Assembly: GCA_044228445.1 (NCBI GenBank)
Contig: JBGAUV010000001.1
Location: 250,495 to 314,494, forward strand
Source of the DNA: Minisyncoccia bacterium
GTDB taxonomy: Bacteria; Patescibacteriota; Minisyncoccia; Phycocordibacterales; PALSA-1337
Direction of reading: 5' to 3'
Length of the DNA stretch: 64,000 nt
Below, piece by piece: positions 5,251 to 52,021 of this stretch. A program made the position numbers and the translations under genes. The notes under the pieces are model-generated. The model was not told the origin of the DNA and did no database searches. It saw nothing but the letters and a program-made list of their open reading frames with translations. Positions within the stretch are counted from its first letter, which is position 1, and the number at the start of each line of letters is the position of its first letter.

Positions 5251-5407
5251 CAAATTGAATCTTGATAATCCCTCAGGGATTATCTTACCGAGTCGATTTT
5301 TGTACTTAATTGTACAAACAAGGGATATTGTTCTACTACCTTACAGTGAACACTCAGTCTGCGAGAGAAAAGACAAAGATCGGTGTCCTCTATAGAGACA
5401 CTGATCG

Positions 5408-8957: not shown

Positions 8958-9695
8958 ATGAAAACACAAACATATACACTAAAGGACAATAATCTATTTT
9001 TGGATGGATCGATAAGAGAATACGTATATAAAATTCGAGACTTACCACTAGATAGAAAACCTAGAGAAAAACTTATAAAACAAGGACCAGAATCATTGTC
9101 AGTCCAAGAGCTTTTGGCAGTGATTTTAAATGTTGGAAGTAAAAGTGAAGATGTTCTTGCTATGTCCAATAGGATAATGAGAGAGTATGGAGAGAGAAGT
9201 ATTATTGCAGAAAAGAATGCAGAAAAGCTCTCACTTGATTTAAACATACCTATCATAAAAGCTTGTCAGATTATTGCTTGTGGAGAAATAGGTAGAAGAT
9301 TTTATGAAAAAAATAAATCTGGTTTTACTGTAATAAGAAATGCACGTGATGTATATGAGTACCTTATTGATATGAGAAATTTACCGAAAGAGCATTTAAG
9401 AGGGCTATATTTAAATAGTCATAATAGAATAATTCATGATGAAGTAATATCTATAGGTACGATAAATACAAATATCGTTCACCCAAGAGAAATATTTAGA
9501 CCAGGAATAGAGTATACATGCGCAGCTGTTGTCTTGGCTCACAATCATCCTTCAGGCGTGTGTACTCCAAGTACTCAAGATATAGAAATTACAGAACAAA
9601 TAATCCAAGCAGGAAAAGTTGTAGGAATAAATGTCTTGGATCATGTGATTATTACAAAAGATAGTTTTGTAAGTATTAGTGCAAATTATAATTAA
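8958..9695 (+). CDS. radC: RadC-family JAB/MPN domain protein
   Basis: ELLAVIL N-terminal HhH region; C-terminal HNHPSG JAMM motif. Confidence 0.85.
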   Translation: MKTQTYTLKDNNLFLDGSIREYVYKIRDLPLDRKPREKLIKQGPESLSVQELLAVILNVGSKSEDVLAMSNRIMREYGERSIIAEKNAEKLSLDLNIPIIKACQIIACGEIGRRFYEKNKSGFTVIRNARDVYEYLIDMRNLPKEHLRGLYLNSHNRIIHDEVISIGTINTNIVHPREIFRPGIEYTCAAVVLAHNHPSGVCTPSTQDIEITEQIIQAGKVVGINVLDHVIITKDSFVSISANYN

Positions 9696-9704
9696 TAAAA
9701 ATAT

Positions 9705-10019
9705 ATGAGAACAATATACAATACACCACCAAATATATACGGAATTCTTTCTGATGATCATATGTTTTTCGAAGGAGTAAATAGGCCTAGTGAAATATAT
9801 AGCATTAGAGATGGAATAAATGAAAAAGATAATATTTTGATTTTAGAAAAATATTTAAATGATTTATACAATCTCTTTTTGAGAAAGATATCAACTTATG
9901 TAACTATACAAACCAATATTGTTGAAGATTCAATAAAACTCCAAGCATTATTACAAGAAATAATAAAGGTAAAAGATCTCATTGAAAAAGCTTCATCTCC
10001 GGATATAATGAAAGAGTGA
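9705..10019 (+). CDS. Hypothetical protein
   Basis: ORF with a GTGA stop/start overlap onto murD; no motif. Confidence 0.4.
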   Translation: MRTIYNTPPNIYGILSDDHMFFEGVNRPSEIYSIRDGINEKDNILILEKYLNDLYNLFLRKISTYVTIQTNIVEDSIKLQALLQEIIKVKDLIEKASSPDIMKE

Positions 10020-11353
10020 ACTATAAAGAATATTTCAAGGATAAAAACATAGCTATAGTGGGTTTGGGTCAATATGGTGAAATGATACCCGATATCAAGT
10101 TTTTAAAGGCTTTAAAGGCCAATATAACGATATATGACCCTAGAAGTGAGAGTAAGTTACGCTCTATAATATCAAAAATGGCTCCAAACCTTAAAAAACT
10201 GCTTTTAACAGGCAGTATTCCTAGTCAGGATCTTGCTTTAAAAGATCTCATAATACTATCTTCAGATATAAATTCTAAGTCCCTTTTTTTGAGAAAAGCT
10301 AGAGAAGCTGGTGTTCCAATAGAATATCAAGAGATTCTTTTCTTAAAATATTCACCAAATATTACTTTACTGGGTATTGCAGGTTCTTATGGAAAGACAT
10401 CTATATCAAAGATGTTAAATTCAATTTTTAAACAATCATTGTCACTAGATTCAAATCAAAGCTTATTTTATATCGATCATGAATCAAGTTCAGGTTATAT
10501 ATCAAATTTAAAAAAGATAAAACCAGGAGATATAGTATTGTCTGAAATACCTGAGCATATGATAAAAGAGTATAGAAAGGCTCGTATCAACCCACACATA
10601 GCAGTTATAACATCATTAACATCAACAGGAGAAGGTGGAGACAATGAAGTCTTTGGTTTACTTGAATATCAAACTTATAATAACTTTATTATTGCACCAG
10701 ATATTGTTATTGATAATTTAAGAAAAAGGGCAGGTTTTACAGCTAGAGCAAAAATATTTAGAACTAGAGTCGGTATAGTTCCAAATAATTGGAATTTATC
10801 AAAACATTCTCCACATGATTTAGAAAATTTATCCTTGGTATTACAAGTGTGTGAAATATTAAAAATTGAAAAAGATACTATTAGATTGGTTATTGAAAAA
10901 TTCAAAGGTATAAAAGGACATATGGAATATGTAAAGAATATTCGTGGTATAGATTTTTATAATGATGGTGCATCCATAAGCCCATATGCAACAGAAAATG
11001 CAATTATAAATATTTCAAATGGTAATGAAGAAAAAAATATAGTTCTTATACTTGGTGGAGCATATACAGGTTATGAATATGATAGGCTAATAAATATTGT
11101 GAAAATCAAGGTTAAAACAGTAATATGTTTACCTGGTAGTGGAACTGTTGGATTTAGAAATATGCTTTTAGATATTCAAGATTTAAATTTCAAGCAAGTA
11201 TTAAATATAGAAGAAGCAATAAAATATGTAAAAGATAGTGCTATAAAAGGGGATAAGGTAGTCTTTAGTCCAGCTTGTCTTGCTATTGGTTTATTTGAAA
11301 ATAGAATAGATAGGATTGAAAAATTTAATAAAATAATAAAGAGTTTTAAATAA
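10016..11353 (+). CDS. murD: UDP-N-acetylmuramoylalanine--D-glutamate ligase (Mur ligase family)
   Basis: N-terminal KNIAIVGLGQYG Rossmann-like motif; P-loop GIAGSYGKTS; MurD-like length. Confidence 0.7.
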   Translation: MNYKEYFKDKNIAIVGLGQYGEMIPDIKFLKALKANITIYDPRSESKLRSIISKMAPNLKKLLLTGSIPSQDLALKDLIILSSDINSKSLFLRKAREAGVPIEYQEILFLKYSPNITLLGIAGSYGKTSISKMLNSIFKQSLSLDSNQSLFYIDHESSSGYISNLKKIKPGDIVLSEIPEHMIKEYRKARINPHIAVITSLTSTGEGGDNEVFGLLEYQTYNNFIIAPDIVIDNLRKRAGFTARAKIFRTRVGIVPNNWNLSKHSPHDLENLSLVLQVCEILKIEKDTIRLVIEKFKGIKGHMEYVKNIRGIDFYNDGASISPYATENAIINISNGNEEKNIVLILGGAYTGYEYDRLINIVKIKVKTVICLPGSGTVGFRNMLLDIQDLNFKQVLNIEEAIKYVKDSAIKGDKVVFSPACLAIGLFENRIDRIEKFNKIIKSFK

Positions 11354-11354
11354 A

Positions 11355-12245
11355 CTAGTCACCACAAATGATACATACACTTATACCTGTTAAATCTCTT
11401 GTATAACTATCTTTCATAAGTCCAACTATCGATAAAGCACTATTTGTAGAAATATCTAAACCTGTATTATTTTTTACTAAAACAATAGCATTATTTATTT
11501 CTTCATTTGTAGCTATATATCCTTTTCCTCCAGTCTGTTTTATTAATTCAATAACCTTTTCTTTTCTAATTACTGTTTGATCGACTATTGCATCAGCTAC
11601 TGATATTTCATTTTTTGGTATGTCTTCTGTAATTTCATTTACCATAAAATGACAACTTGAAGTTTGTATAATATTTACTTCTATTTTATTTTTATTATTA
11701 ATAAAGTATTGTGCTAAAGCTTGTGCAGTAGTACCAGATGAAGTACCAATGTAAATCCTTTTTATATCTTTTATTTTTGATATTTCTTGAGCAAGACTCT
11801 CATAACCTAATAATGCTATATCATCTGTTGATTGTCTTAAGCTTTTTATATTTTGATCTTTTATTCTTTCAAATAATGATTGAAGAGGTTTTTCTACCTG
11901 ACTAATTCTTATATTTTCATCTTTTATTTTATAAAGTTTATTAAGTTTATTTTTATTTACTTTATTACCAATAAGAATTTCAAGTTTTATTTTTTCTTGG
12001 TTTTTATCATTTATTTCTTTTATATATAGAGCTGAAGCTAAACCTGCATTACCAGAAGAAGAAATAGCAAATTCCTTATAACCATGTTTAATATAATGAT
12101 CTATCATAAGAGGTAGAGATCGTCCCTTGTGAGAACCGTATGGGTGCATATCCTCCCTTTTTAATACTATACTCGCTCCTATTGCTAAGTTTAAGTCCTT
12201 GTATTCTTCATTTGGGGTGATGTTTTTTATTGATGACTTTTGCAT
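11355..12245 (-). CDS. Fold-type II PLP-dependent enzyme (Trp-synthase-beta / threonine-synthase-like)
   Basis: GSHKGRS resembles the S-x-K-D/G-R PLP-lysine motif; GTSSGTTAQ glycine-rich loop. Confidence 0.5.
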   Translation of the reverse strand: MQKSSIKNITPNEEYKDLNLAIGASIVLKREDMHPYGSHKGRSLPLMIDHYIKHGYKEFAISSSGNAGLASALYIKEINDKNQEKIKLEILIGNKVNKNKLNKLYKIKDENIRISQVEKPLQSLFERIKDQNIKSLRQSTDDIALLGYESLAQEISKIKDIKRIYIGTSSGTTAQALAQYFINNKNKIEVNIIQTSSCHFMVNEITEDIPKNEISVADAIVDQTVIRKEKVIELIKQTGGKGYIATNEEINNAIVLVKNNTGLDISTNSALSIVGLMKDSYTRDLTGISVCIICGD

Positions 12246-12461: not shown

Positions 12462-13841
12462 TTATTTACTTAGTCTCTTTACTGTTTCTTCTATCATACC
12501 TCTAAAACCGTGAGATCCTAAAAAGGCGATAATATCTCCTTTTTTTGTATTTAATAATAAGAAGTTTATTAATTCTTCATCATCTTCTATGTATAGGGTG
12601 TTTTTATGTGTATTTGAAATTACGTTAGCAAGTTCTTTTCCATCCATAGGCTTTTTATCTTCATTCTCATTGATTTTCAATTTTGATAATCTAGGTATTA
12701 TTACTATGTCTGAATCAATAAAAGCATTTTTATAACTTCCACTTGCATCAATCTCTCTTCCTCCAATATTTGGTTCGAATACCGTAATAATTTTGCCTTT
12801 ATATATAGATCTTAAACAATTCAAAACTGAAATTGCTTTTTCTCCAGAATGAGCAATATCATCTATTACTTTTATATCACCATCATATCTTTTTTCTAAT
12901 CTTCTTTTCATACCTTTGAATTTTTCTATAGATGATATTATTTTTTCTGGTGATAGTCCTATATTGTGTGCCATAGCAAAAGCGCCAGTAATATTCTCAG
13001 CTTGAAAACTTCCTAATAATTGAGATTTAATATCATATGTATTATCTTTATGTTTTATTTTAAATTCCAAACCATTTTCATTTTGAATTATGTCTTTATA
13101 AACATAGTCAGCATTTTCTTTACCATAAAATATTGCTTTATCTAGTATCTTTTTTATTCCAGAATTATCTTTATTGGCAACGATCACTCCATTTTCTGGA
13201 ATGCTATTTATTAAATTTTTAAATACATCAAAATAACTTTTTTCACTAGGGTAAAGATCAGCATGATCCCAAGACACGGCTGTAAGTATTAAATGACTTG
13301 GTTTATAGTAATAAAACTTCGGTTTATTATCCCAAATAGCTGTTTTATATTCATCTCCTTCAACAACACTTATATTTGAATCAGACAAACTACCAGATTT
13401 ATGTGAAAGGGAAACACCACCAGTAAAATAACTGGGCTTCATATTATTATCAAGTAAAATAAAAGATAAAAGGGAAGATATGGTAGTTTTTCCCCAAGTT
13501 CCTGTTACTACTATTGATGTATCTTTTACGATGTATCTACCTATTGCTTCAGCAAATGATAAAACTTCTATACCTTTTTCTTTAGCATACATTATTTCAG
13601 GATTTGAAAGACTTGTCCCACTTCCTCCTGCAATTATCACATTTGGCTCACCAATATTTTCAGGGTGCCAACCCGCATAAAAATACACACCATTTTTTTC
13701 AAGATCTGTTGAAACTGGCGGAAAAAACCCTTTATCAGAACCGGTAACTTTATATCCTTGATCTTTTAAAGCAATAGCAATGGCGCTAGTAGCTACACCG
13801 CAAATTCCTACTATATGAATATGAAATGGTCCTGTGGACAT
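12462..13841 (-). CDS. Mur ligase, MurC/Mpl family
   Basis: HIHIVGICGVATSAIAIALKDQGYKVTGSD closely resembles the Mpl/MurC N-terminus; P-loop TGTWGKTT. Confidence 0.8.
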   Translation of the reverse strand: MSTGPFHIHIVGICGVATSAIAIALKDQGYKVTGSDKGFFPPVSTDLEKNGVYFYAGWHPENIGEPNVIIAGGSGTSLSNPEIMYAKEKGIEVLSFAEAIGRYIVKDTSIVVTGTWGKTTISSLLSFILLDNNMKPSYFTGGVSLSHKSGSLSDSNISVVEGDEYKTAIWDNKPKFYYYKPSHLILTAVSWDHADLYPSEKSYFDVFKNLINSIPENGVIVANKDNSGIKKILDKAIFYGKENADYVYKDIIQNENGLEFKIKHKDNTYDIKSQLLGSFQAENITGAFAMAHNIGLSPEKIISSIEKFKGMKRRLEKRYDGDIKVIDDIAHSGEKAISVLNCLRSIYKGKIITVFEPNIGGREIDASGSYKNAFIDSDIVIIPRLSKLKINENEDKKPMDGKELANVISNTHKNTLYIEDDEELINFLLLNTKKGDIIAFLGSHGFRGMIEETVKRLSK

Positions 13842-13842
13842 A

Positions 13843-14502
13843 TTATTGTAAATTATTAAGTAAATCTTTTATTTGTTTTAAATCTTGTTTCCATTCTTTT
13901 CCATCGAACCATTCTATGCCTTCAAATTGAAGTTTATATACATCACTTGGTCTTTGTAGTGAACCTAGGTAAACATATTTTAATCCAATATTTTTTGCAT
14001 ATTCAATAGTCTTTGTCATCATTATTATACCCATATCTCTCGGAGATTTTTCTATATCGTAGAATGGATAACAATAATGTATAAAGTCACTGTTTTTATA
14101 ACATATAGCATAACCGCTATTGTTGAAATTTAATAATACATTAAAATTATGTTCTGTGGTAATTATTTCTTTTATTTTATTTGCAGAAAAAGCACCACCA
14201 GCTTTTTTATCATAAAAGTCTTTTGCAATTTTTCCTATCTGCCAAGAATAATTAGAATAGGGAATTGTTTCAATTTTCATATCAATGTTTTCACCTTTTC
14301 TAAGTATCCTTCTATTTTCACTAGTTAAATTAAATTTATTTAAATTAATTCTAACTGATCTAGTTTGTTGAATAGTGTCTTTTTGTATACGAGTAAATAC
14401 ATAACCGTTATTGTATAAACTAGTTATATCATCATCATGTTTTATATCCTTTTGATCCCAGTGTAAATATTCCATACTAGTGAAGTGCAAGCCAAACTCC
14501 AA
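13843..14502 (-). CDS. Ate/Bpt-family (aminoacyl-tRNA--protein transferase-like, GNAT fold) protein
   Basis: R-x-INLNKF-x-LTSENRRILRK and HYCYPFYD...MGIIMMTKTIEYAKNIGLKYVYLG...YKLQF match ATE_N/ATE_C signature patterns from memory. Confidence 0.5.
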   Translation of the reverse strand: MEFGLHFTSMEYLHWDQKDIKHDDDITSLYNNGYVFTRIQKDTIQQTRSVRINLNKFNLTSENRRILRKGENIDMKIETIPYSNYSWQIGKIAKDFYDKKAGGAFSANKIKEIITTEHNFNVLLNFNNSGYAICYKNSDFIHYCYPFYDIEKSPRDMGIIMMTKTIEYAKNIGLKYVYLGSLQRPSDVYKLQFEGIEWFDGKEWKQDLKQIKDLLNNLQ

Positions 14503-15604
14503 TTACAACAAAAATAAAATGTATAATCCAGAATCTCATTATTGTTTTTTCTTCACTCCAACCAGTCATTTCAAAATGATGGTGAATTGGTGCCATTTTA
14601 AATATTCTTTTACCAAATACATATTTACTAAATACTTGTATCAAAACTGATATTGCTTCTATGTAGAACATAAAACCTAAAAAGAATAATGCACTTATTT
14701 CTCCAATTGCCAAAGTATTTACAGCAAGTAAAGCTCCAAGCCCTAAAGATCCAACATCACCCATCATAAATCTAGCGGGTTTAATATTGAAATATGTATA
14801 TGATACAAGTGCTCCAACTACAGTAGAATTTAATACTGCAATTTCACCAAAACCATTTATCCAAGACATTAGTGTTAAAGCTGAAAAAGTGGGTATAAGC
14901 ATTCCACCAGCAAGTCCATCCATACCATCAGCAATATTTACTGCATTTGCAGTGAACATAACTATAAAAATAACAATTGGTATTATAAGCCAACCTGCAT
15001 ACCATTCGAAACCAAAAGGAAAATATATATTATGCCAAGCTGGACCTAGTTTGTCATAAACCCACCAAGCTGTAATTGAACCAGCAATAAACTGTAGTAC
15101 AAGTTTTTCATGAACTGCCACACCTCTTACTGTTCTTGATCCAATCCAAACTGAAGTTCTTTTAAATATAGTCCAAGGTAGAGTTACGGTATACCATAGT
15201 CTCATTTTAAATTCTTTATGAATTTTAATTAAATTTAAAACATGACTTAATTTTCTTGATCTTCTTTCACTACCAAATATATTCATTAAATCATCTATAC
15301 CACCAAGCATTGCAGAAAGTATCATTACTCCCACAGGTACCCATGTAAAACTTCTAGACCAATTAAAAAGTAAGGTCATAATTGCTACAACTATTATTAC
15401 TAAAAGACCTCCCATTATGGGCGTATTCTCTTTTCCAGTTCTTGAATCAAAACTAGTTAATTCAATTTTAGGTTGTTTGATAACTCTATACTTTTTTAAT
15501 ACATGTATAAGTAAAGGTGCACAAAGGAAAGCTATTAGACAGCTAAAAATAGAAAAACCTAGAATATAGCCAAGATCGGCCGTTCCTTCAAGTATGCTTA
15601 TCAT
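14477..15604 (-). CDS. mraY: Phospho-N-acetylmuramoyl-pentapeptide transferase
   Basis: NAVNIADGMDGLAGG, PIHHHFE motifs; 10 TM-like segments. Confidence 0.9.
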   Translation of the reverse strand: MISILEGTADLGYILGFSIFSCLIAFLCAPLLIHVLKKYRVIKQPKIELTSFDSRTGKENTPIMGGLLVIIVVAIMTLLFNWSRSFTWVPVGVMILSAMLGGIDDLMNIFGSERRSRKLSHVLNLIKIHKEFKMRLWYTVTLPWTIFKRTSVWIGSRTVRGVAVHEKLVLQFIAGSITAWWVYDKLGPAWHNIYFPFGFEWYAGWLIIPIVIFIVMFTANAVNIADGMDGLAGGMLIPTFSALTLMSWINGFGEIAVLNSTVVGALVSYTYFNIKPARFMMGDVGSLGLGALLAVNTLAIGEISALFFLGFMFYIEAISVLIQVFSKYVFGKRIFKMAPIHHHFEMTGWSEEKTIMRFWIIHFIFVVIGVWLALH

Positions 15605-15657
15605 ATTCTGTAATATTAGCCTAAAATAAGCCTTTTTTCAAACTTTATTTATGTGTA

Positions 15658-16437
15658 TTATTTAAAGAAATTTAACCTCAAAAGTTCAGTTGTAGAGTTC
15701 TTTGCGCCTATGTAAGTATAGTTATCTTCACCCGTTTTATCTGATTCTATCCATTTTTGTTCAATTAGACTTTTATTTATGTCAATGATTTCAATTATTC
15801 CATCATTTATACCATGACCATATTCTCCATGACTTGGCCAAGCTATGGAGTGTGTATAATGTATTTTTATAGGTATAAAGTTTTGATATTCCACTTGATA
15901 TACAACTAAAATATGATTTCTTTCTCCTGCTCCAGAATTTCTTTGCATAGTTATTATATCTCCAACTTTTACATCCTTTATTTCTATAGGGTGAGAATTT
16001 TCTTTTGATGCAAAAGTTTCAACATTGGTATTTTCAATTGGTCTCATCATTGATCTTATTTTTCCAATTATTCCTTTTGAAAAAGGAAAGGATAAATGTT
16101 TGTCTAAACTACCTTTACCCAAACTTATACTTTCAGCATTTAAAATATAATAAGCATAACCCGAACAATCTATTCCAATATTATGCATTACTAATATTTT
16201 TTTTAATTCTTCACTAGTAATATCTTTTATAGATATCTTTTCTTTCATTATTATTTGTTCAATCTCTTCAAATATTTCCTTTGGACTACCTTTACCATTT
16301 TCTACACGGAGTTTTGCTCTACCACCTGAGTGGCGATTGTTATAATAAGGTATAGAACAAATTGCATTACCAAGTTTGAAATTTTTATATTGATCAATTA
16401 TAGAAATAGCTTTTTCACTTAAAAATTTTGTATTCAT
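15658..16437 (-). CDS. NlpC/P60-like cysteine peptidase domain protein
   Basis: GIDCSGYAYYIL catalytic-Cys motif with downstream NHILVV His. Confidence 0.45.
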   Translation of the reverse strand: MNTKFLSEKAISIIDQYKNFKLGNAICSIPYYNNRHSGGRAKLRVENGKGSPKEIFEEIEQIIMKEKISIKDITSEELKKILVMHNIGIDCSGYAYYILNAESISLGKGSLDKHLSFPFSKGIIGKIRSMMRPIENTNVETFASKENSHPIEIKDVKVGDIITMQRNSGAGERNHILVVYQVEYQNFIPIKIHYTHSIAWPSHGEYGHGINDGIIEIIDINKSLIEQKWIESDKTGEDNYTYIGAKNSTTELLRLNFFK

Positions 16438-16443
16438 ATTGAG

Positions 16444-17568
16444 TTATATTATACATTCAAGTATAGACTTACCTCTTTTATTGAATTTATTATGTGTTTC
16501 CATTATACCCATAATACTTTGTATTCTAAACTCATCGCTATTTATCTTTGTATTATTATATTTAATTATATTATACCCATTCTCTTTTAAGGTATTTATA
16601 TCAATGGCAAAATCTTTTTTTGTTATTCTTTTAATAATTTGGGCTCCATCATTTATTTCAATAATATCTTCACTAATATCTTCATCTCTCAAAGCTTTTA
16701 TATGTGCTTCAAAAATTGTAATTCCTTTTATTCCTTCATTTCTATTCATCTTTTGAATTTCAGATTCATATGTAGTTGAAGCTGGTTGTCGAGCATTAAT
16801 CTCAATTAAAAATATTTTATCTCTCTGCTCATCATATATTACATCTATACCAAATAAGCCTTTCCATCCAGAATCTTTCATTTTTTGACCAATTTTATTT
16901 GCTATAGATTTTATTTCTTCAATTTGCAAATCTGTGAGTATGCTTGGCGGCACACTCCAATCATTACCAATTGTACTCATCATGTTTTCTGTAAAAGGTA
17001 ACATGCCGGTTATTTGATAACTTATATTTCCAAGTAGAATCTTATTTTTTCCAACAACAATGTTTAAAGTAAACATTGGCCCTTTTATGTATTCTGTAAC
17101 TCTTGCTTGTCTGTTTGGAAAGCTTGAAACTATAGTTTTTAATTCTTTCTCGCTATTTATTAGATATGTACCTTCACCAGTATGACTATGAGCCCATTGC
17201 AATATAAATGGTTTTTCTTTCCATACAATATCATTTCCTAATACTAAACTATGTTCCGGTAGTAAGTTTTCTAATTCTTTAAGCCAAGTAACTTGAGTTA
17301 TTTTATTTTCAATCATTTCTGATAATTCAGCTTTAGGGTTTAGTATTTCAAAATTATTCTCTTTAGCAATATTTTCTATTTGTATATTATTTTTAAATAC
17401 CAAAACCGAATATTTACCCTTTTTTATTTTATCGATATTTTTTTGATCCCTCAGTATATCAAGGGTGCTTTTTGTACCCTCAGAACTAAGTATTTCATAG
17501 GTATTATCTTGAGCCAGACTTTGAGCTCTTTCAGTATCTTTTGTTACATATAAGATTTTATTCTTCAT
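16444..17568 (-). CDS. ATP-grasp domain protein (not obviously Ddl)
   Basis: GLFGIDVIYDEQRDKIFLIEINARQPAST. Start moved to MKNKILYV, which lies downstream of a TGgTATAGT -10 element. Confidence 0.6.
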   Translation of the reverse strand: MKNKILYVTKDTERAQSLAQDNTYEILSSEGTKSTLDILRDQKNIDKIKKGKYSVLVFKNNIQIENIAKENNFEILNPKAELSEMIENKITQVTWLKELENLLPEHSLVLGNDIVWKEKPFILQWAHSHTGEGTYLINSEKELKTIVSSFPNRQARVTEYIKGPMFTLNIVVGKNKILLGNISYQITGMLPFTENMMSTIGNDWSVPPSILTDLQIEEIKSIANKIGQKMKDSGWKGLFGIDVIYDEQRDKIFLIEINARQPASTTYESEIQKMNRNEGIKGITIFEAHIKALRDEDISEDIIEINDGAQIIKRITKKDFAIDINTLKENGYNIIKYNNTKINSDEFRIQSIMGIMETHNKFNKRGKSILECII

Positions 17569-17640: not shown

Positions 17641-17838
17641 ATGTCAAAAAGACAATTACTTTCTCTGATAGGTATATGGAATATATTCTTTTTATTTCTA
17701 GGAATTCCAGATACTTGGGATAAGATTATATCCGGAATTATGGGATTAATAATAATTTTAATTGCATACAAAATACCGCATGAATATAAAAAGACTGAAA
17801 TAAATAAAACCGATGGTGCATTTATAGAAAATAAATAG
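17641..17838 (+). CDS. Small membrane protein
   Basis: Two hydrophobic helices; ORF only. Confidence 0.4.
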   Translation: MSKRQLLSLIGIWNIFFLFLGIPDTWDKIISGIMGLIIILIAYKIPHEYKKTEINKTDGAFIENK

Positions 17839-17840
17839 TA

Positions 17841-19019
17841 ATGAGCTTTAAGGAAATTTATAAAAATAAGCTCTTATTAAATGGAACTGTATTCATAATA
17901 TTTCTTGTCGTCTCTGTAAAAATTTCTAACATACCTTTTATATATAATGCATATACTAGTTCAATAACTGATGCACTCGGTACAACAACAATACTTTTAA
18001 ATAAAAAGAAAATTGTTCATATACAAACCCCTGAACCAGTAAAAGCTGTTTATATGACTAGCTGGGTAGCGGGGAATATAAAATTAAGAAATAAAGTTAT
18101 TGATTTAATAGATAAGACAGAAATAAATTCCATTGTAATAGACATAAAGGATTATACAGGCAGAATAAGTTTTAAAGTTGATGATGAAAAATTAAAAGAA
18201 ATTGGTTCTGTAGAAGAAAGAATACCAGATATTGTTGGTTTGATTGATATGTTACATGAAAAAAATATTTATGTAATTGGTAGAATATCTAGTTTTCAAG
18301 ATTCATATTTTGTAAAGAAATTCCCTCAATATTCTGTAAAGACAAAGAGTGGGGAAGTTTGGAAGGATTATAAAGGAATAAGTTGGCTTGATGCTGGTGC
18401 CGAACCCGTATGGGATTATCTGGTTAATATAGGTAATGAAGCATATTCAAAAGGTTTTGATGAATTAAATTTTGACTACATACGTTTTCCTTCAGATGGA
18501 AACATGATAGATATTTCATATACTTTCGGTAAAGGTAGAAATAGAGTAGATGTAATGAAAGATTTTTATGCTTTTATTGATAAATCTTTTAGACCAAAAG
18601 GAATTCCAATTTCAGCAGATTTATTTGGTATGACAACTTCAAATAGTGATGACTTGGGAATAGGACAAATTCTTGGAAATGCACTTATGCATTTTGATTA
18701 TGTTGCGCCAATGATATATCCATCGCACTACCCACCAAACTTCAATGGTTGGCCAAATCCTGCAAAGAAACCATATGATGTTATCAAGTTTGCCCTTGAA
18801 AGGGGAGTGAATAAAGCTGCAATTGCTAGCACAAGTCCAAATAAACTACGTCCTTGGTTACAAGACTTTGGTATAAATGGTGTTCCATATACTCCAGATA
18901 TGGTTCGTGAACAAATTAAGGCTACATATGATGTTGGTCTTACGAGTTGGATGATGTGGAATGCTTCAAATAATTATTCTCTACCAGCATATGAAGTTGC
19001 AACTAGTACGGGAGTTTAG
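17841..19019 (+). CDS. Putative glycoside hydrolase (DUF4015-like TIM-barrel), membrane anchored
   Basis: GFDELNFDYIRFP motif; N-terminal TM anchor. Confidence 0.6.
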   Translation: MSFKEIYKNKLLLNGTVFIIFLVVSVKISNIPFIYNAYTSSITDALGTTTILLNKKKIVHIQTPEPVKAVYMTSWVAGNIKLRNKVIDLIDKTEINSIVIDIKDYTGRISFKVDDEKLKEIGSVEERIPDIVGLIDMLHEKNIYVIGRISSFQDSYFVKKFPQYSVKTKSGEVWKDYKGISWLDAGAEPVWDYLVNIGNEAYSKGFDELNFDYIRFPSDGNMIDISYTFGKGRNRVDVMKDFYAFIDKSFRPKGIPISADLFGMTTSNSDDLGIGQILGNALMHFDYVAPMIYPSHYPPNFNGWPNPAKKPYDVIKFALERGVNKAAIASTSPNKLRPWLQDFGINGVPYTPDMVREQIKATYDVGLTSWMMWNASNNYSLPAYEVATSTGV

Positions 19020-19657: not shown

Positions 19658-21517
19658 ATGAATGAAGAAAGAATTACATATTTTGCTCAAACAGACGCTA
19701 GAAATAAAAAGGTTTCCTTTGGAATAAAAGCAAAGGATAGAACTCGTCATGTTTATGTAATAGGAAAAACAGGTATGGGTAAATCAACCCTACTTGAAAA
19801 CATGGCTGTACAAGACATAAAGAATGGTGAAGGAATGGCTTTTATAGATCCACACGGTAAAACAGCAGACTTACTTTTGGAATATGTACCAAAAGAAAGA
19901 ATAAAAGATGTAATATATTTTGCTCCTTTCGATCTAGATCACCCAATATCATTTAATGTGCTTGAAAAAGTAGATGCAGATAAAAGACATCTAGTAGTAT
20001 CAGGTTTGATGAGTACATTTAAAAAGATTTGGAAAGATGCTTGGTCAGCAAGAATGGAATATATTCTTACAAATACACTTTTAGCACTTCTTGAATATCC
20101 AGAAGCAACTTTGCTTGGTGTAAATAGAATGCTTTCAGATAAAGAGTATAGAAAAAAGGTTGTAGCTTCAGTAACTGATCCAGCAGTAAAAACATTTTGG
20201 GTAGAAGAATTTGCAAACTATACAGAACGTATGGCAGCAGAAGCAGTACCTGCAATACAAAATAAAATAGGACAGTTTACAGCAAATGCACTAATTAGAA
20301 ATATGATTGGTCAGCCAAAATCTTCTTTTGATATAAGAAAAGCAATGGATGAAAAGAAGATTATGATTATAAACCTATCAAAAGGTAGAATAGGAGAAAC
20401 AAATGCAAATCTATTGGGAGGTATGCTTATTACAAAAATATATCTAGCAGCACTTTCGCGAGCAGATGTACCTGATAGAGTATTAAAAACACTACCAAAC
20501 TTCTATTTATTCGTAGACGAGTTTCAATCTTTTGCAAATGAATCTTTTGCAGATATTCTATCAGAAGCAAGAAAGTATAAATTGAATCTAACAATAGCCC
20601 ATCAATACATTGAACAAATGGAAGAGGAAGTTAGAGCTGCTGTATTTGGAAACGTCGGAACAATGATTGTATTTCGTGTTGGTTCGTATGATGCTGAGGT
20701 TTTAGAAAAAGAATTTGCTCCGCAGTTTACAGCTGAAGATATTGTAAATCTTGGTTTTGCTCAAATATATTTAAAACTTATGATTGATGGAATAAGTTCA
20801 CTACCATTTTCTGCTACAACACTACCTCCAATTCCACAACCAGAGATTTCAAATGCAGATGAAGTTTTAGCTACTTCCAGAGCACAATTTGCAAAAAATA
20901 GAGATGAAGTTGAAAAGAATATTGCAGATTGGCATGCACCCATTACACCTCCACAAAAGAATAAAATACCAAAACCTCCAGAAAATACAAAAACAGATAA
21001 TTTACATAAAAATCAAGATAATAATCCAGCTCATAATATTCCGAAACCAATTCCTATACCAGTAAAACCACAAATGGAAGTAAATAATATTCCAAAACCT
21101 CATGTTGTTCAAAATCCAACAGTAAATCAAGCACAATTGGATAATAAAAATAACACACAAATACAAAATAACAATCATGGCAATATGGAAAATCATAAAG
21201 TTCATACTGAAGTTAATAATCACAAAACTGAAGAAAAAAAAGATGATTTTATTTCACTTGAAAGTTTAAAGAAACAGGTTACAAATACAGCTCCACAAAG
21301 TCAACACAAACCTCACGAAGTTCATGTAAAAAATGTAAAAGAACAAGATCCAAAAAATGTCAGTGAACTTAGAAATGCTTTAGCTTCAGTACTAAAGAAT
21401 AATAATTTACCTAAAAAAGACGAGGTAGATAAAAAAGAAAAAAATGAGGTAAAAAATGAGGTTCAAAAAGGTGAGGTTTCAGAGGATGTACTAAAACAGG
21501 TACTTAAGGTAGAGTAA
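19658..21517 (+). CDS. VirD4/TraG/TraD-like (T4SS coupling-protein-like) P-loop ATPase with a long low-complexity C-terminal tail
   Basis: Walker A GKTGMGKST, Walker B FYLFVDEFQSF, IAHQY; no N-terminal TM; tail rich in N/K/P/H/Q. Confidence 0.7.
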   Translation: MNEERITYFAQTDARNKKVSFGIKAKDRTRHVYVIGKTGMGKSTLLENMAVQDIKNGEGMAFIDPHGKTADLLLEYVPKERIKDVIYFAPFDLDHPISFNVLEKVDADKRHLVVSGLMSTFKKIWKDAWSARMEYILTNTLLALLEYPEATLLGVNRMLSDKEYRKKVVASVTDPAVKTFWVEEFANYTERMAAEAVPAIQNKIGQFTANALIRNMIGQPKSSFDIRKAMDEKKIMIINLSKGRIGETNANLLGGMLITKIYLAALSRADVPDRVLKTLPNFYLFVDEFQSFANESFADILSEARKYKLNLTIAHQYIEQMEEEVRAAVFGNVGTMIVFRVGSYDAEVLEKEFAPQFTAEDIVNLGFAQIYLKLMIDGISSLPFSATTLPPIPQPEISNADEVLATSRAQFAKNRDEVEKNIADWHAPITPPQKNKIPKPPENTKTDNLHKNQDNNPAHNIPKPIPIPVKPQMEVNNIPKPHVVQNPTVNQAQLDNKNNTQIQNNNHGNMENHKVHTEVNNHKTEEKKDDFISLESLKKQVTNTAPQSQHKPHEVHVKNVKEQDPKNVSELRNALASVLKNNNLPKKDEVDKKEKNEVKNEVQKGEVSEDVLKQVLKVE

Positions 21518-46131: not shown

Positions 46132-46887
46132 ATGACAAACGATATAAAACATAAAAATACCATTGTTGATTATTATAATAAAGAGAGTACTCAATATTCA
46201 AAAAAGAGATATGAGGGTAGTCTAAATACATATACCCAATATCTTTTTAGAAAAAGAATGAATATATATTTTAACTATATATTTTATGTTAAAAATGCAT
46301 TAAAACACCCAATTGACTTATTTGATATAGGTTGTGCTGATGGTGTAGTTTTATTTAATACTGAAGATAAATTTAGTGATTTTATAAAGTCATTTGATGC
46401 AGTCGATGTTTCAAGTTCTATGGTTGATATTGCAAATAAAAATAAAATAAATAATAAATTTAATTTTTATTTACGTGGTCAAGAACCAGATAAAAAATAT
46501 GACTTGGTTACTGAACTAGGTGTACATATATCTGATCCAGATTCAGAATATAAATACGTTAAAAATAAATTAAATAATAGTAATTCTTTTTATATATTTT
46601 CAGTTTCAAGTAAAAATTCTCTACATACAATATTTAAATTAAAGAATGATCCAAAAGCAAAACACTATACAGATTTAAAAACATTTAAACAGACTGAAGT
46701 TATATTAAATAGACATTTTAAAATTATAAAGAAGACACCATACGGTTTATTTATACCAAAACTATGGTCAATATCTATTTTGGGTTCATTATTTCAACCT
46801 ATAATTGATACTGTATTTAGTTTTATTACACCTAGTTTATTTCACGAGACTATATACCTTGTTTCTCCTTTGGATAAAAAAGAATAG
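46132..46887 (+). CDS. Putative SAM-dependent methyltransferase
   Basis: LFDIGCADGV motif-I-like; 3' end overlaps the convergent flippase gene by ~50 nt. Confidence 0.55.
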   Translation: MTNDIKHKNTIVDYYNKESTQYSKKRYEGSLNTYTQYLFRKRMNIYFNYIFYVKNALKHPIDLFDIGCADGVVLFNTEDKFSDFIKSFDAVDVSSSMVDIANKNKINNKFNFYLRGQEPDKKYDLVTELGVHISDPDSEYKYVKNKLNNSNSFYIFSVSSKNSLHTIFKLKNDPKAKHYTDLKTFKQTEVILNRHFKIIKKTPYGLFIPKLWSISILGSLFQPIIDTVFSFITPSLFHETIYLVSPLDKKE

Positions 46888-50992: not shown

Positions 50993-52021
50993 GTGAATAT
51001 AATTTCTGGTCTCAGTTTGAATAATTTGACAACTTTTCGTATCGGGGGCAAAGCCCGATTTTTTTGTATTATAAATAATATAAATGATGTTAAGGAGGGT
51101 ATAGATTTTGCAAAAAATAATAATTTAGATATTTTTATACTTGGTGGTGGTTCAAATATCTTAGTTTCTGATCAAGGTTTTGATGGTTTGGTAATGAAAA
51201 TGGAAATAAAAGGTATTGAACTAAACATAATTGATGAACAAGAAGTAATTGTTAAGGCTTATGCAGGGGAAAATTGGGATGATTTAGTAAAATATACAGT
51301 TGATAAAAATTTAAGAGGTTTAGAAAATTTATCATATATACCTGGAACAGTTGGTGCTAGCCCTATCCAAAATATAGGTGCTTATGGTAGTGAAGTAAAA
51401 GATAGTATCGATTTCGTTGAAGTATATGATATAGAAAATGATAAAATTTTAAAATTAAATAATTCTGATTGTGATTTTTCATATAGAAACAGCATATTTA
51501 AAAAGCAAAAAGGTAAGTATATTGTGATCTCAGTAGGATTTTTATTACATAGAGATAATAAATTTAATATTGAGTATAAGGACTTGAAGGATTATTTTTT
51601 AAAAAATAATGTAGGTATGTTAACAGTACAAAAGATTAGAGATGCTGTTGTTGATATTAGGAAAAATAAATTACCAGATATTAAAGATATAGGTACAGCA
51701 GGATCATATTTTAAAAATCCAATTGTAAGTATCGATAAAGCTCAAAGTTTAAAGAATAAATGGAGTGATTTACCGATCTATCCATATACATATGATAAAG
51801 TAAAACTGTCTCTAGCTTGGATAATTGATAAAGTTTGTGGTTTTAAAGGTGTATCTAGAGGTAATGTTGGAACATATAAGAATCAAGCTTTAGTGATTGT
51901 AAATAATGGTAATGCTAGCGCAAAACAAGTGTACGAATTTGCAAATGAAATAACAAAAGCAGTTAAAGAAAAAACCGATATAAATATTGAAACAGAAGTG
52001 GAATGGGTTGGAAAATTATGA
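50993..52021 (+). CDS. murB: UDP-N-acetylenolpyruvoylglucosamine reductase
   Basis: NLTTFRIGGKA, ILGGGSNILVSD, GTAGSYFKNP; GTG start. Confidence 0.85.
   Translation: MNIISGLSLNNLTTFRIGGKARFFCIINNINDVKEGIDFAKNNNLDIFILGGGSNILVSDQGFDGLVMKMEIKGIELNIIDEQEVIVKAYAGENWDDLVKYTVDKNLRGLENLSYIPGTVGASPIQNIGAYGSEVKDSIDFVEVYDIENDKILKLNNSDCDFSYRNSIFKKQKGKYIVISVGFLLHRDNKFNIEYKDLKDYFLKNNVGMLTVQKIRDAVVDIRKNKLPDIKDIGTAGSYFKNPIVSIDKAQSLKNKWSDLPIYPYTYDKVKLSLAWIIDKVCGFKGVSRGNVGTYKNQALVIVNNGNASAKQVYEFANEITKAVKEKTDINIETEVEWVGKL

What the first reader, a model, noticed from the sequence alone, without database searches (positions are those of the whole stretch)
12462..17568. Non-canonical peptidoglycan operon: ATP-grasp, NlpC/P60-like, MraY, Ate/Bpt-like transferase, Mpl/MurC-like ligase
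Five tightly packed minus-strand genes replace the usual dcw neighbours of mraY (murE/murF/murD/ftsW). The gene between mraY and the Mur ligase overlaps mraY by 26 nt. It carries the sequence patterns of the arginyl/leucyl-tRNA-protein transferase family (Ate/Bpt). That GNAT-type fold is related to the Fem aminoacyl-tRNA transferases that build peptidoglycan cross-bridges. An Ate-family enzyme acting on lipid II or UDP-MurNAc-peptide, together with an unusual ATP-grasp ligase, would be an undescribed route of stem-peptide modification.
Basis: partly seen in the sequence, partly recalled or inferred. Interest (0 to 1): 0.5.

Follow-up and report, generated by a model that had tools for sequence, protein, structure and literature searches.

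The report
tRNA-dependent transferase in CPR cell-wall operon
A compact cell-wall gene cluster of an ultra-small (CPR/Patescibacteria) bacterium contains an uncharacterised relative of the enzymes that move amino acids from tRNA onto other molecules; this gene sits among peptidoglycan-precursor genes in hundreds of genomes, so these bacteria probably build a modified cell-wall peptide by a route nobody has described.

Summary
The five minus-strand genes exist and are correctly identified: ATP-grasp ligase, cytoplasmic NlpC/P60-like Cys-His-His enzyme, MraY, Ate/Bpt-like protein and MurC/Mpl-like ligase. One detail is wrong. The Ate-like gene most likely starts at the ATG at 14475 (210 aa), 1 nt after the mraY stop, so the 26-nt overlap is a longest-ORF artefact.

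Gene order is conserved in about 80 Paceibacteria/Magasanikbacteria loci. A sister clade in Microgenomates lies between murE and murC inside a full dcw cluster. A third clade, in Verrucomicrobiota, follows alanine racemase.

MurE and MurF co-occur with the gene, so it adds a step and does not replace them. The most likely role is Fem-like, aminoacyl-tRNA-dependent modification of a peptidoglycan precursor. This rests on fold, motifs and synteny; acceptor and donor are unknown. The cluster should be extended to the ThrC-like PLP enzyme and the convergent MurD-like gene. I rate it a new variant of a known kind, of moderately high interest.

The parts
16444..17568 (-). ATP-grasp carboxylate-amine ligase (374 aa from the ATG at 17568), a CPR-specific family
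   Evidence: NCBIfam gives PRK06524 at 1e-17 and the pseudomurein 'Ddl_archaea' ATP-grasp at 1e-10; no Ddl model is hit. There are 1245 homologues, many carrying PF02655 ATP-grasp_3. The AF2 model has pLDDT 89.6. Foldseek's best matches are PurK, PurD, PurT and L-amino-acid ligases, which is generic. It lies upstream of the Ate-like gene on the same strand in 60 of 66 loci.
15658..16437 (-). Cytoplasmic NlpC/P60-like Cys-His-His enzyme (259 aa)
   Evidence: PF00877 gives E 1e-4 and 22.6 bits against a cut-off of 23. Cys91, His175 and His196 are invariant in 26 orthologues, including Microgenomates. The GIDCSGF-YYVLN motif matches the catalytic-Cys motif of LytE. No N-terminal hydrophobic segment is visible in the sequence. 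It is present in 67 of 72 loci and on the opposite strand in 12 of them.
14477..15604 (-). MraY (phospho-MurNAc-pentapeptide translocase) with a lineage-specific insertion of about 47 aa after the DD motif
   Evidence: TIGR00445 scores 183 bits against a cut-off of 192. PDB MraY 4J72 matches at 6e-39, with query residues 108-156 unaligned. The insertion is conserved in 82 orthologues. MraY lies directly upstream of the Ate-like gene in 74 of 78 loci, with a median gap of 8 nt.
13843..14475 (-). ATE_C-only Ate/Bpt-superfamily protein (210 aa), a predicted aminoacyl-tRNA-dependent transferase
12462..13841 (-). MurC/Mpl-family Mur ligase, most simply the organism's MurC
   Evidence: All three Mur ligase Pfam domains are present. 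murC scores 254.5 and mpl 204.8 bits, both below cut-off. In the PDB, MurC 6cau matches at 4e-38 and Mpl 3hn7 at 5e-37. The Microgenomates orthologue is followed by murB and murA. It lies downstream of the Ate-like gene in 63 of 66 loci.
11355..12245 (-). ThrC-like / serine-dehydratase-like fold-type-II PLP enzyme (296 aa), a conserved last gene of the unit that was not in the finding
   Evidence: PF00291 PALP gives 9e-29. Threonine-synthase models score far below cut-off. PDB ThrC matches at 5e-6 with the PLP lysine aligned in GSHKGRS. It is present on the same strand in 62 of 63 loci and also ends the Microgenomates cluster.
10016..11353 (+). Divergent MurD-like Mur ligase, convergent with the cluster
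   Evidence: TIGR01087 murD scores 135.5 bits against a cut-off of 212. It hits the MurD-like_N, Mur_ligase_M and Mur_ligase_C Pfam domains. It is conserved on the opposite strand in 42 of 52 loci.
8958..10019 (+). RadC (8958-9695) and a conserved 104-aa protein of unknown function (9705-10019), co-oriented with and upstream of the MurD-like gene
   Evidence: RadC Pfam domains are hit. RadC, the 104-aa gene and MurD-like keep this order in 34 to 49 loci. A functional link to the cluster has not been shown.
17641..19019 (+). Divergently transcribed pair: a 65-aa membrane protein (17641-17838) and a membrane-anchored DUF4015 putative glycoside hydrolase (17841-19019)
   Evidence: PF13200 DUF4015 gives 4e-95. 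The pair is conserved opposite the ATP-grasp gene in 43 of 58 loci. Its role is unknown.
50993..52021 (+). MurB (UDP-N-acetylenolpyruvoylglucosamine reductase), which shows that MurNAc is made de novo and that the peptidoglycan genes are scattered in this genome
   Evidence: PF01565 and PF02873 MurB_C are both hit.

Best explanation
The region is the Paceibacteria (Parcubacteria-type CPR) version of a rearranged dcw cell-wall cluster.

Core precursor enzymes: MurC-like ligase and MraY, with a MurD-like ligase convergent next door.

Four lineage-typical accessory enzymes are interleaved with them:
- an ATP-grasp ligase;
- a cytoplasmic NlpC/P60-type cysteine enzyme;
- a ThrC-like PLP enzyme;
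- a 210-aa ATE_C-only member of the Ate/Bpt/Fem/MprF superfamily of aminoacyl-tRNA-dependent transferases.

The last of these most likely takes an aminoacyl-tRNA. It would bind the tRNA through its basic SENRR helix and stabilise the tetrahedral intermediate with the invariant Tyr-Lys pair. It would then transfer the amino acid onto a free amino group of a peptidoglycan precursor. The most probable acceptor is the side-chain amine of the residue added by MurE, on UDP-MurNAc-peptide or lipid I/II. The result would be a branched or bridged stem peptide. In function this resembles FemX/MurM, but it is carried out by a different branch of the superfamily. MurE and MurF still act and are not replaced.

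Shown here: gene identities, fold, conserved catalytic motifs and conserved genomic linkage in three lineages.
Inferred: use of tRNA, the peptidoglycan acceptor, the donor amino acid, and any coupling to the ATP-grasp, PLP or NlpC enzymes.

For: 2. Motifs. The pair Y180-K181 is invariant in 50 diverse members, as are S52, N54 and R56 of the predicted helix 52-60, 'SENRRILRK'. In KlAte1, Tyr303-Lys304 (equivalent to FemX Phe304-Lys305) are essential, and a basic alpha-3 helix binds the tRNA (PMC9351520).

3. Family. ATE_C is hit by 45 of 50 members and ATE_N by none. There are 1333 homologue clusters at 90% identity. Relatives occur in at least 595 species-representative genomes.

4. Synteny in Paceibacteria/ABY1. 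MraY is directly upstream in 74 of 78 loci. MurC is downstream in 63 of 66, PALP in 62 of 63, ATP-grasp in 60 of 66 and NlpC-like in 67 of 72. In the window the spacers are 1 nt.

5. Independent context 1. In Microgenomates/Shapirobacteria the sister clade lies in the order mraZ-rsmH-ftsI-murE-ATE-murC-murB-murA-murF-mraY-NlpC-PALP. Its start overlaps the murE stop by 4 nt. A murE-ATE pair also occurs in a contig of 28% GC, L112.

6. Independent context 2. In Verrucomicrobiota/Limisphaerales the homologue follows alanine racemase in about 24 of 31 loci. It is often preceded by a PurD-like ATP-grasp.

7. MurE and MurF co-occur with the gene (L053; PMC4508563 Table S1). The enzyme therefore adds a step and does not substitute for one.
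Against: - There are no biochemical or muropeptide data.
- No FemAB (PF02388) signal appears at E <= 0.1.
- The ATE_N domain, which forms the acceptor pocket in Ate1/Bpt, is not detectable, so nothing here indicates the acceptor.
- Fourteen of 50 members also hit a generic GNAT model, PF13480, so an acyl-CoA donor is not formally excluded.
- The Verrucomicrobial homologues sit next to alr but not next to mur or mraY genes.
- Parcubacteria are reported to carry a separate 'pentaglycine-bridge formation' (Fem-type) protein (PMC4508563), so the Fem role may already be filled.
- The NlpC-like gene is inverted in 12 relatives, so the five genes are not always one transcript.
- The full gene complement of this genome could not be inspected.
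Confidence: 0.55

Rival explanations
1. Peptide-building route. The Ate-like enzyme does not decorate a finished stem peptide. It condenses an aminoacyl-tRNA with a free D-amino acid or dipeptide (for example D-Ala, D-Ala-D-Ala or D-Glu) supplied by the linked PLP enzyme and ATP-grasp ligase. The resulting small peptide is then loaded by a Mur ligase, in an Mpl-like convergent assembly.
For: - A PLP enzyme and an ATP-grasp recur beside the gene in two phyla, although they are not orthologous. In CPR they are PALP plus an ATP-grasp_3-type enzyme. In Verrucomicrobiota they are alanine racemase plus a PurD-like ATP-grasp.
- Two loci have the PurD-like ATP-grasp directly upstream without alr (L114 and L117).
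- The Mur ligase scores almost equally against MurC and Mpl structures.
- Chemically, an aminoacyl-tRNA donor needs a free amine as acceptor, and free amino acids or peptides provide one.
Against: - NCBIfam favours murC over mpl by 50 bits.
- The orthologous ligase in Microgenomates sits beside murB and murA, and no other MurC candidate lies in that cluster.
- MurD-like, MurE and MurF are all retained (PMC4508563), so a stepwise pathway is complete without this route.
- The ATP-grasp is absent from the Microgenomates cluster.
Confidence: 0.15
2. Protein N-terminal aminoacylation. The protein is a minimal Bpt-type N-degron transferase (Leu or Arg onto N-terminal Asp/Glu of proteins), and its position in the cell-wall cluster is incidental or regulatory.
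For: - It is annotated as an arginyltransferase by JGI.
- Its closest named families are ATE_C and Bpt.
- Its best structural match is ATE1, over nearly the full length.
- clpP is in the Parcubacteria core (PMC4508563 Table S1).
Against: - Bpt equivalog cut-offs are missed by 117-340 bits.
- None of 50 members has ATE_N, and the window protein has no Cys in its N-terminal 120 residues.
- The best 150 representative relatives all aligned to the query with full or partial coverage, and the 18 N-termini inspected all show the same non-Bpt pattern.
- Linkage to peptidoglycan-precursor genes is seen in three separate lineages with different gene orders. Chance is unlikely to produce that.
Confidence: 0.1
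3. An acyl-CoA-dependent GNAT. The protein N-acylates a peptidoglycan precursor or a D-amino acid and does not use tRNA.
For: - The C-terminal lobe is a GNAT fold.
- PF13480 and PF00583 are hit by 14 and 6 of 50 members respectively.
- A profile search of PDB sequences finds only plain GNAT acetyltransferases.
Against: - The Tyr-Lys dyad and the basic helix typical of aminoacyl-tRNA transferases are invariant.
Confidence: 0.1

Closest known systems
FemX / FemABX / MurM-MurN (aminoacyl-tRNA-dependent peptidoglycan branch transferases, PF02388)
   Different: No sequence match to PF02388 was found. The protein is about 210 aa with a single compact ATE-like architecture, whereas Fem proteins are 330-420 aa. 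It is structurally closer to ATE1. Activity on peptidoglycan has not been shown.
ATE1 / bacterial Bpt (arginyl- or leucyl-tRNA-protein transferases; PF04376 ATE_N + PF04377 ATE_C)
   Same: ATE_C is hit just above the gathering score. ATE1 is the best structural match, with 201 of 210 residues aligned. The YK dyad, the basic helix and the YLG...YK...F.G.E motifs are conserved.
   Different: ATE_N and its Cys cluster are absent. Scores fall far below the Bpt equivalog cut-offs. The family is a separate, large clade. Its genomic context is cell-wall synthesis; no N-degron genes (clpS, clpA, aat) were seen in the annotated neighbours.
MprF / aminoacyl-phosphatidylglycerol synthase C-terminal domain (DUF2156)
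   Different: MprF acts on a lipid head group and is fused to a membrane flippase domain. The window protein is soluble and stands alone. CPR bacteria are reported to lack phospholipid synthesis genes (PMC4508563).
D-aspartate ligase Aslfm/AslA plus aspartate racemase (ATP-grasp route to D-amino-acid cross-bridges in enterococci and lactococci). Recalled from established literature, not tested here.
   Same: In both cases an ATP-grasp ligase and a PLP-type amino-acid-converting enzyme are encoded with peptidoglycan genes. This is a possible analogy for the ATP-grasp and PALP pair.
   Different: No orthology was shown. The ATP-grasp's best structural matches are PurK, PurD and PurT. The PLP enzyme is ThrC-like and not a known racemase.
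Pseudomurein biosynthesis cluster of methanogens (pMurC/D/E, archaeal MraY, ATP-grasp 'Ddl_archaea'; PMC10117817)
   Same: There are weak cross-hits: the ATP-grasp to NF053643 at 1e-10, MraY to NF053644 at 4e-28 and the Mur ligases to the pMur models. Both clusters mix Mur ligases, MraY and an ATP-grasp.
   Different: All scores are far below those families' cut-offs, and the bacterial models score higher. MurB is present in the window, and MurA as well as MurB in the Microgenomates relatives, so the wall is MurNAc-based murein.
NlpC/P60 gamma-D-Glu-diamino-acid endopeptidases (LytE, CwlO, YkfC)
   Same: The catalytic Cys motif G-x-DCSGF-x-Y-VLN is present, and the Cys-His-His triad is conserved.
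   Different: The Pfam score is just below the cut-off. No signal peptide is evident, so the protein is presumably cytoplasmic. It has a conserved N-terminal extension of about 85 aa (PY-NN...GKG motif). Its substrate is unknown.

Membership tests
ATE/Bpt arginyl(leucyl)-tRNA-protein transferases | ATE_C domain (PF04377) at or above the gathering score | tested here: met
   The window protein scores 26.8 bits against a cut-off of 25, which is marginal. Forty-five of 50 family members hit ATE_C at E <= 0.01.
ATE/Bpt arginyl(leucyl)-tRNA-protein transferases | ATE_N domain (PF04376) with the conserved Cys cluster and the acidic-N-terminus pocket | tested here: not met
   No ATE_N hit was found for the window protein or for any of 50 members. 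The window protein has no Cys in its N-terminal 120 residues, and none is conserved in that region of the family alignment.
ATE/Bpt arginyl(leucyl)-tRNA-protein transferases | Scores above the NCBIfam Bpt/arginyltransferase equivalog cut-offs | tested here: not met
   The best score is 53 bits against cut-offs of 170-358. The sister clades behave the same way.
ATE/Bpt arginyl(leucyl)-tRNA-protein transferases | ATE1-like three-dimensional fold | tested here: met
ATE/Bpt arginyl(leucyl)-tRNA-protein transferases | Transfer of Arg or Leu from tRNA to N-terminal Asp/Glu of proteins | not testable with these tools
   This needs an enzyme assay or proteomics.
Aminoacyl-tRNA-dependent transferase superfamily (Fem/ATE/MprF/Aat) | Catalytic Lys preceded by an aromatic residue, plus a basic tRNA-binding helix | tested here: met
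   Y180, K181, S52, N54 and R56 are invariant. Residues 52-60 form a helix in the model. Correspondence to KlAte1 Y303/K304 and the alpha-3 helix is by motif position (PMC9351520), not by residue-level superposition.
FemABX (PF02388) | Sequence match to the FemAB family model | tested here: not met
   No PF02388 hit appears at E <= 0.1 or among the family's top Pfam hits.
FemABX (PF02388) | Aminoacyl-tRNA-dependent addition to the side-chain amine of stem-peptide residue 3 | not testable with these tools
   Only genomic linkage is available.
MraY (TIGR00445) | Equivalog score and conserved catalytic motifs (DD, NxxNxxDGxDGL, HHH) | tested here: inconclusive
   The score is 183 bits against a cut-off of 192. 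The likely cause is a 47-aa insertion after the DD motif. The motifs GGIDD, NAVNIADGMDGL and PIHHHFE are present and largely conserved across orthologues. The PDB match is 6e-39. It is functionally almost certainly MraY.
MurC (TIGR01082) versus Mpl (TIGR01081) | Score above the equivalog cut-off for one of the two | tested here: not met
   murC scores 254.5 against 335, and mpl 204.8 against 389. PDB MurC and Mpl E-values are nearly equal. Context (murB and murA next to the Microgenomates orthologue) favours MurC.
NlpC/P60 (PF00877) | Family model score and a Cys-His-(His/Asp/Glu) triad | tested here: inconclusive
   The score is 22.6 bits against 23. Cys91, His175 and His196 are invariant in 26 orthologues. 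The catalytic-Cys motif matches LytE. No structure prediction was run.
D-Ala-D-Ala ligase (Ddl) | Match to Ddl models or closest fold to Ddl | tested here: not met
   No bacterial Ddl model is hit. The fold search is led by PurK, PurD and PurT. There is only a weak hit to the archaeal 'Ddl_archaea' ATP-grasp (1e-10; 41 bits against 500).

The most novel reading that the evidence does not exclude
Across much of the CPR (Paceibacteria, ABY1/Magasanikbacteria, Microgenomates, probably Dojkabacteria), and separately in Limisphaerales Verrucomicrobiota, peptidoglycan precursors receive a side branch made by a previously unrecognised module. In this reading:
1. A PLP enzyme supplies an unusual or D-amino acid.
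2. An ATP-grasp ligase attaches it to the side-chain amine of stem residue 3.
3. The ATE_C-only enzyme then extends it with an L-amino acid from aminoacyl-tRNA. This would reuse the ATE family's preference for an amine next to a carboxylate.
4. The cytoplasmic NlpC/P60 enzyme edits or recycles the product.

The basic 47-aa insertion in MraY could dock this machinery at the membrane. If so, the cell wall of a large fraction of bacterial diversity would have an undescribed chemotype, made by an undescribed enzyme class.
Probability: 0.15. Interest if true: 0.85.

Novelty: new variant of a known kind. Interest (0 to 1): 0.6.

Why it matters
tRNA-dependent decoration of peptidoglycan is known only for Fem-type enzymes, mainly in Gram-positive bacteria. 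In those bacteria it determines cross-linking and beta-lactam resistance.

Here a different branch of the same superfamily, currently annotated as an 'arginyltransferase' or as hypothetical, is fixed inside the cell-wall gene cluster of several CPR classes. It occurs in at least 595 species-level genomes. With it travel a cytoplasmic NlpC/P60 enzyme and a ThrC-like PLP enzyme, and in some classes an ATP-grasp ligase.

CPR bacteria are a very large, almost uncultured part of bacterial diversity, and their envelope mediates their epibiotic or parasitic lifestyle. An unusual stem peptide or bridge would bear on how they attach to hosts, how they resist lytic enzymes and how they are sensed. It would also correct a systematic mis-annotation and define a new functional family of aminoacyl-tRNA transferases. 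The hypothesis can be tested directly with recombinant protein, and by muropeptide mass spectrometry on the few CPR co-cultures now available.

Tried and rejected
- Sequence searches of PDB chains with the single protein and with a 50-member profile found no ATE1 or FemX, only weak plain GNATs. Only fold comparison linked the protein to ATE1.
- The ATP-grasp profile against PDB sequences and its fold search gave only generic ATP-grasp matches (PurK, PurD, PurT, L-amino-acid ligases). No substrate could be inferred, and the idea that it is a Ddl is not supported.
- The NlpC-like profile against the PDB matched only the 16-residue catalytic motif of LytE.
- Alignments A1 and A5 were too divergent to seed locus searches. 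Narrower alignments A2 and A6 were used instead.
- I looked for extra Mur-ligase paralogues (MurE/MurF) within 10 kb either side in 83 Paceibacteria/ABY1 loci. None was found except MurF and FtsI in L053. Whole genomes could not be inspected, so I relied on PMC4508563 Table S1 for murE/murF presence.
- Six literature searches found no paper linking an Ate/Bpt-like protein to dcw or peptidoglycan genes in CPR.
- Rfam found no RNA element in the cluster. Promoter- and terminator-like sites occur at chance frequency.
- I considered that the cluster is a pseudomurein-like or muropeptide-recycling (Mpl plus endopeptidase) system and judged this less likely. MurB is present in the window and MurA as well in the Microgenomates relatives, bacterial models outscore the pseudomurein models, and murC outscores mpl.
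- The TTG start at 14502 was rejected in favour of the ATG at 14475.

Full report
**Observation**

The window has about 28% GC and carries a bacterial 16S rRNA gene (3723-5255) and RNase P RNA. The best protein matches come from Taylorbacteria, Paceibacterota and Parcubacteria MAGs, so the organism is a CPR/Patescibacteria bacterium of the Paceibacteria type.

Between 12462 and 17568 there are five co-directional minus-strand ORFs. They were identified by Pfam and NCBIfam as follows:
- an ATP-grasp enzyme (16444-17568);
- a 259-aa protein with a near-threshold NlpC/P60 hit (15658-16437);
- MraY (14477-15604);
- a protein hitting ATE_C just above its gathering score, and Bpt 'arginyltransferase' models at E 3e-14 (13843-14502);
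- a three-domain Mur ligase that scores higher for MurC than for Mpl (12462-13841).

One detail is not. The 219-aa ORF is the longest possible reading, from a TTG. Nearly all listed homologues are 207-221 aa and start MEYLxW. The sequence shows the mraY stop TAG, one base, then ATG at 14475. Likewise the ate stop TAA is followed by one base and then the murC ATG. The genes are separated by 1 nt and do not overlap by 26 nt.

**What the 210-aa protein is**

It has 1333 homologue clusters at 90% identity. An exhaustive search of 50%-identity representatives finds 328 relatives. The 18 representative N-termini I inspected, like the members aligned earlier, share a pattern that canonical Bpt lacks (MKxxFSE..DY..Y.FPY, truncated in the Paceibacteria form) and show no ATE_N-type Cys cluster. 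Across 50 diverse members, 45 hit ATE_C and none hits ATE_N. Bpt equivalog cut-offs are missed by more than 100 bits.

The invariant residues include Y180-K181 and S52, N54 and R56 of a predicted basic helix, 'SENRRILRK'. In KlAte1 the Tyr303-Lys304 pair (FemX Phe304-Lys305) is essential for catalysis, and a basic alpha-3 helix binds the tRNA (PMC9351520).

I therefore treat the protein as a member of the aminoacyl-tRNA-dependent transferase superfamily. It is closest to ATE1 in fold, but it belongs to a separate, uncharacterised, ATE_C-only family. It is not an Ate/Bpt orthologue.

**Conservation of the neighbourhood**

In the 80 loci retrieved (Taylorbacteria, Paceibacterota, Nomurabacteria, Magasanikbacteria), tblastn and ORF-based counts gave these frequencies:
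- MraY directly upstream on the same strand: 74 of 78 loci, median gap 8 nt;
- MurC-like ligase downstream: 63 of 66;
- a ThrC-like PLP enzyme after MurC: 62 of 63;
- the ATP-grasp upstream: 60 of 66;
- the NlpC-like gene between ATP-grasp and MraY: 67 of 72, on the opposite strand in 12;
- a MurD-like ligase convergent with the cluster: 42 of 52;
- RadC beyond MurD-like: 34 of 41;
- a DUF4015 membrane protein divergent from the ATP-grasp gene: 43 of 58.

The conserved unit is also larger than the finding. It includes the PLP enzyme at 11355-12245 and, on the other strand, the MurD-like gene at 10016-11353.

**Two further, independent contexts**

The sister clade of about 262 aa was traced in metagenome contigs.

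*Microgenomates.* In contigs of 34-43% GC the gene lies inside a textbook dcw cluster. These contigs were assigned to Microgenomates/Shapirobacteria from source names. The order is GlyRS - hyp - mraZ-like - rsmH - ftsI - murE - ATE-like - murC-like - murB - murA - murF-like - mraY - NlpC-like - PALP. The ATE-like start overlaps the murE stop by 4 nt, and the order is the same in every sufficiently long locus. MurE there passes its NCBIfam cut-off (407 against 257 bits). It carries EDPR where DAP-type enzymes have DNPR, so the Arg is retained. A 28%-GC contig (L112) also has murE followed by the ATE-like gene.

*Verrucomicrobiota.* In contigs of 50-67% GC, assigned to Verrucomicrobiota/Limisphaerales, the homologue follows alanine racemase in about 24 of 31 loci. 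The racemase scores 360 bits on TIGR00492. The pair is often preceded by a PurD-like ATP-grasp that is far below the purD cut-off.

Three lineages with three different gene orders all place this family next to enzymes that make peptidoglycan precursors. This is the strongest evidence for a cell-wall role.

**What it does not do**

It does not replace MurE or MurF.
- Both sit beside it in Microgenomates.
- MurF and FtsI precede mraY in one ABY1-type locus, L053.
- The published Parcubacteria core-gene table lists murE in 15 and murF in 14 of the compared genomes. It also lists murA, murB, murG, murJ and ftsI, with ftsI next to murF (PMC4508563 Table S1).

The window itself encodes MurB at 50993-52021. 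The dcw cluster in Paceibacteria is simply fragmented. 'Replace the usual neighbours' describes position, not function.

There is also a chemical constraint. An aminoacyl-tRNA donates an activated carboxyl, so the acceptor must be a free amine. The enzyme therefore cannot extend the stem peptide at its C-terminus as Mur ligases do. It can decorate a side-chain amine, as Fem enzymes do, or acylate the N-terminus of a free amino acid or peptide.

**Most likely mechanism**

The ATE_C-only enzyme probably transfers an amino acid from aminoacyl-tRNA onto an amine of a peptidoglycan precursor. The most plausible acceptor is the side-chain amine of the residue installed by MurE, given the murE-ATE adjacency and translational coupling in Microgenomates and the mraY-ATE-murC coupling here. 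I put this at about 0.55.

The donor is unknown. By loose motif alignment to the KlAte1/Bpt side-chain pocket, the equivalent positions in this family are hydrophobic (I151/M152, V168). That argues against Arg, but it is a low-confidence inference.

The conserved GlyRS gene about 5 kb upstream in Microgenomates is a weak hint at best.

**Roles of the other accessory genes**

These are open.
- The ATP-grasp is CPR-specific. It is structurally generic and not a recognisable Ddl.
- The PLP enzyme is a distant ThrC / serine-dehydratase relative with its PLP lysine intact.
- The NlpC-like protein keeps an invariant Cys-His-His triad and a LytE-like catalytic motif, and has no evident signal peptide.

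An ATP-grasp and a PLP enzyme recur next to the ATE-like gene in both CPR and Verrucomicrobiota, although they are not orthologous. This suggests a three-enzyme module, which I set out as the more novel reading (about 0.15).

**Rivals**

- A peptide-building, Mpl-like route (0.15). MurC and Mpl are nearly tied against solved structures. However, murC outscores mpl, and the orthologue sits with murB and murA.
- A minimal N-degron Bpt (0.1). Against it are the missing ATE_N domain, the failed equivalog cut-offs and the threefold peptidoglycan linkage.
- An acyl-CoA GNAT (0.1). Against it are the higher structural similarity to the tRNA-dependent enzymes and the conserved Tyr-Lys dyad and basic helix.

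**Comparison with the known, and novelty**

It probably works like FemX/MurM, but it is not a FemABX member because there is no PF02388 signal. It folds like ATE1, but it fails two defining Ate/Bpt features: the ATE_N domain and the equivalog scores.

Six literature searches found no paper linking an Ate/Bpt-like protein to dcw or peptidoglycan genes in CPR. Public annotations call it an arginyltransferase or hypothetical.

I classify it as a new variant of a known kind: tRNA-dependent peptidoglycan decoration carried out by a different branch of the superfamily, with new partners. Interest is 0.6. The association is broad, robust and directly testable, but the biochemistry is still entirely inferred.

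**Limits**

- The full genome could not be inspected.
- Residue-level structural superposition was not possible.
- The NlpC-like and PLP enzymes were not modelled.
- All functional statements beyond fold, motifs and synteny are inference.

Noticed in passing
window 15137-15283 (MraY residues ~108-156): MraY carries a basic insertion of about 47 aa (FGSERRSRKLSHVLNLIKIHKEFKMRLWYTVTLPWTIFKRTSVWIGSRTV) directly after the catalytic DD motif, relative to A. aeolicus MraY. It is highly conserved in 82 Paceibacteria/ABY1 orthologues and absent from the Microgenomates MraY. It should lie on the cytoplasmic face near the active site, so it could be a docking site for a partner enzyme or for tRNA.
   Followed up: partly
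window 15658-16437; loci L001, L003-L007, L011, L016, L017, L020, L021, L055: The NlpC/P60-like gene alone is inverted (opposite strand) in 12 close relatives. It is co-directional in the window and in most other genomes. This single-gene inversion inside an otherwise fixed gene order means the five genes are not always one transcript.
   Followed up: partly
window 11355-12245 (-); L095:15385-16323: A short ThrC-like / serine-dehydratase-like PLP enzyme closes the cell-wall cluster in Paceibacteria, ABY1 and Microgenomates. These organisms otherwise lack amino-acid biosynthesis. It may supply a non-standard or D-amino acid, for example a DAP surrogate such as lanthionine, for the stem peptide.
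   Followed up: partly
L095:6455-7687 and other Microgenomates MurE genes: MurE in the Microgenomates dcw cluster has EDPR in place of the DNPR motif of DAP-type MurE. The Arg that binds the distal carboxylate is kept. This suggests a diamino-dicarboxylic residue at position 3.
   Followed up: partly
L084-L107, about 5 kb upstream of murE: Glycyl-tRNA synthetase and a conserved 273-aa protein of unknown function precede the mraZ-like gene and rsmH at the head of the Microgenomates dcw cluster, in every locus that is long enough. This is a weak hint that Gly-tRNA could be the donor.
   Followed up: no
L113-L163 (Verrucomicrobiota/Limisphaerales contigs): There is an apparent operon of a PurD-like ATP-grasp (TIGR00877 108 bits, far below cut-off), alanine racemase and the ATE_C-only protein. 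In two loci from other lineages (L114, L117) the ATP-grasp is directly upstream without alr. The product is unknown.
   Followed up: partly
window 21522-50411: A very large surface-glycan cluster lies here. It has at least 10 glycosyltransferases (GT1/GT2/GT4/GT9/GT47-like), at least 7 SAM methyltransferases, an asparagine synthase, a fatty-acid-desaturase-like protein, a Wzx-type flippase (46837-48108, minus strand) and a Wzy-like polymerase fused to TPR repeats (48174-50411).
   Followed up: no
window 19658-21517 (+): This 619-aa protein is a TrwB/TraG-like type IV secretion coupling protein with a long low-complexity, Asn/Lys/Pro-rich C-terminal tail. A homologous DUF87/TrwB gene lies near DUF4015 in L001.
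   Followed up: no
window 9705-10019 (+) and 17641-17838 (+): Two small conserved proteins of unknown function flank the cluster. A 104-aa protein sits between RadC and the MurD-like gene (49 loci). A 65-aa membrane protein sits upstream of DUF4015 (23-48 loci).
   Followed up: no
loci L004, L005, L053, L061 and others (record titles): Many TPA MAG records that carry this Paceibacteria-type cluster are titled 'uncultured Candidatus Saccharibacteria' or 'Gammaproteobacteria'. They share full synteny and 50-70% identity with the Taylorbacteria and Magasanikbacteria loci. The taxonomic labels are probably wrong.
   Followed up: no
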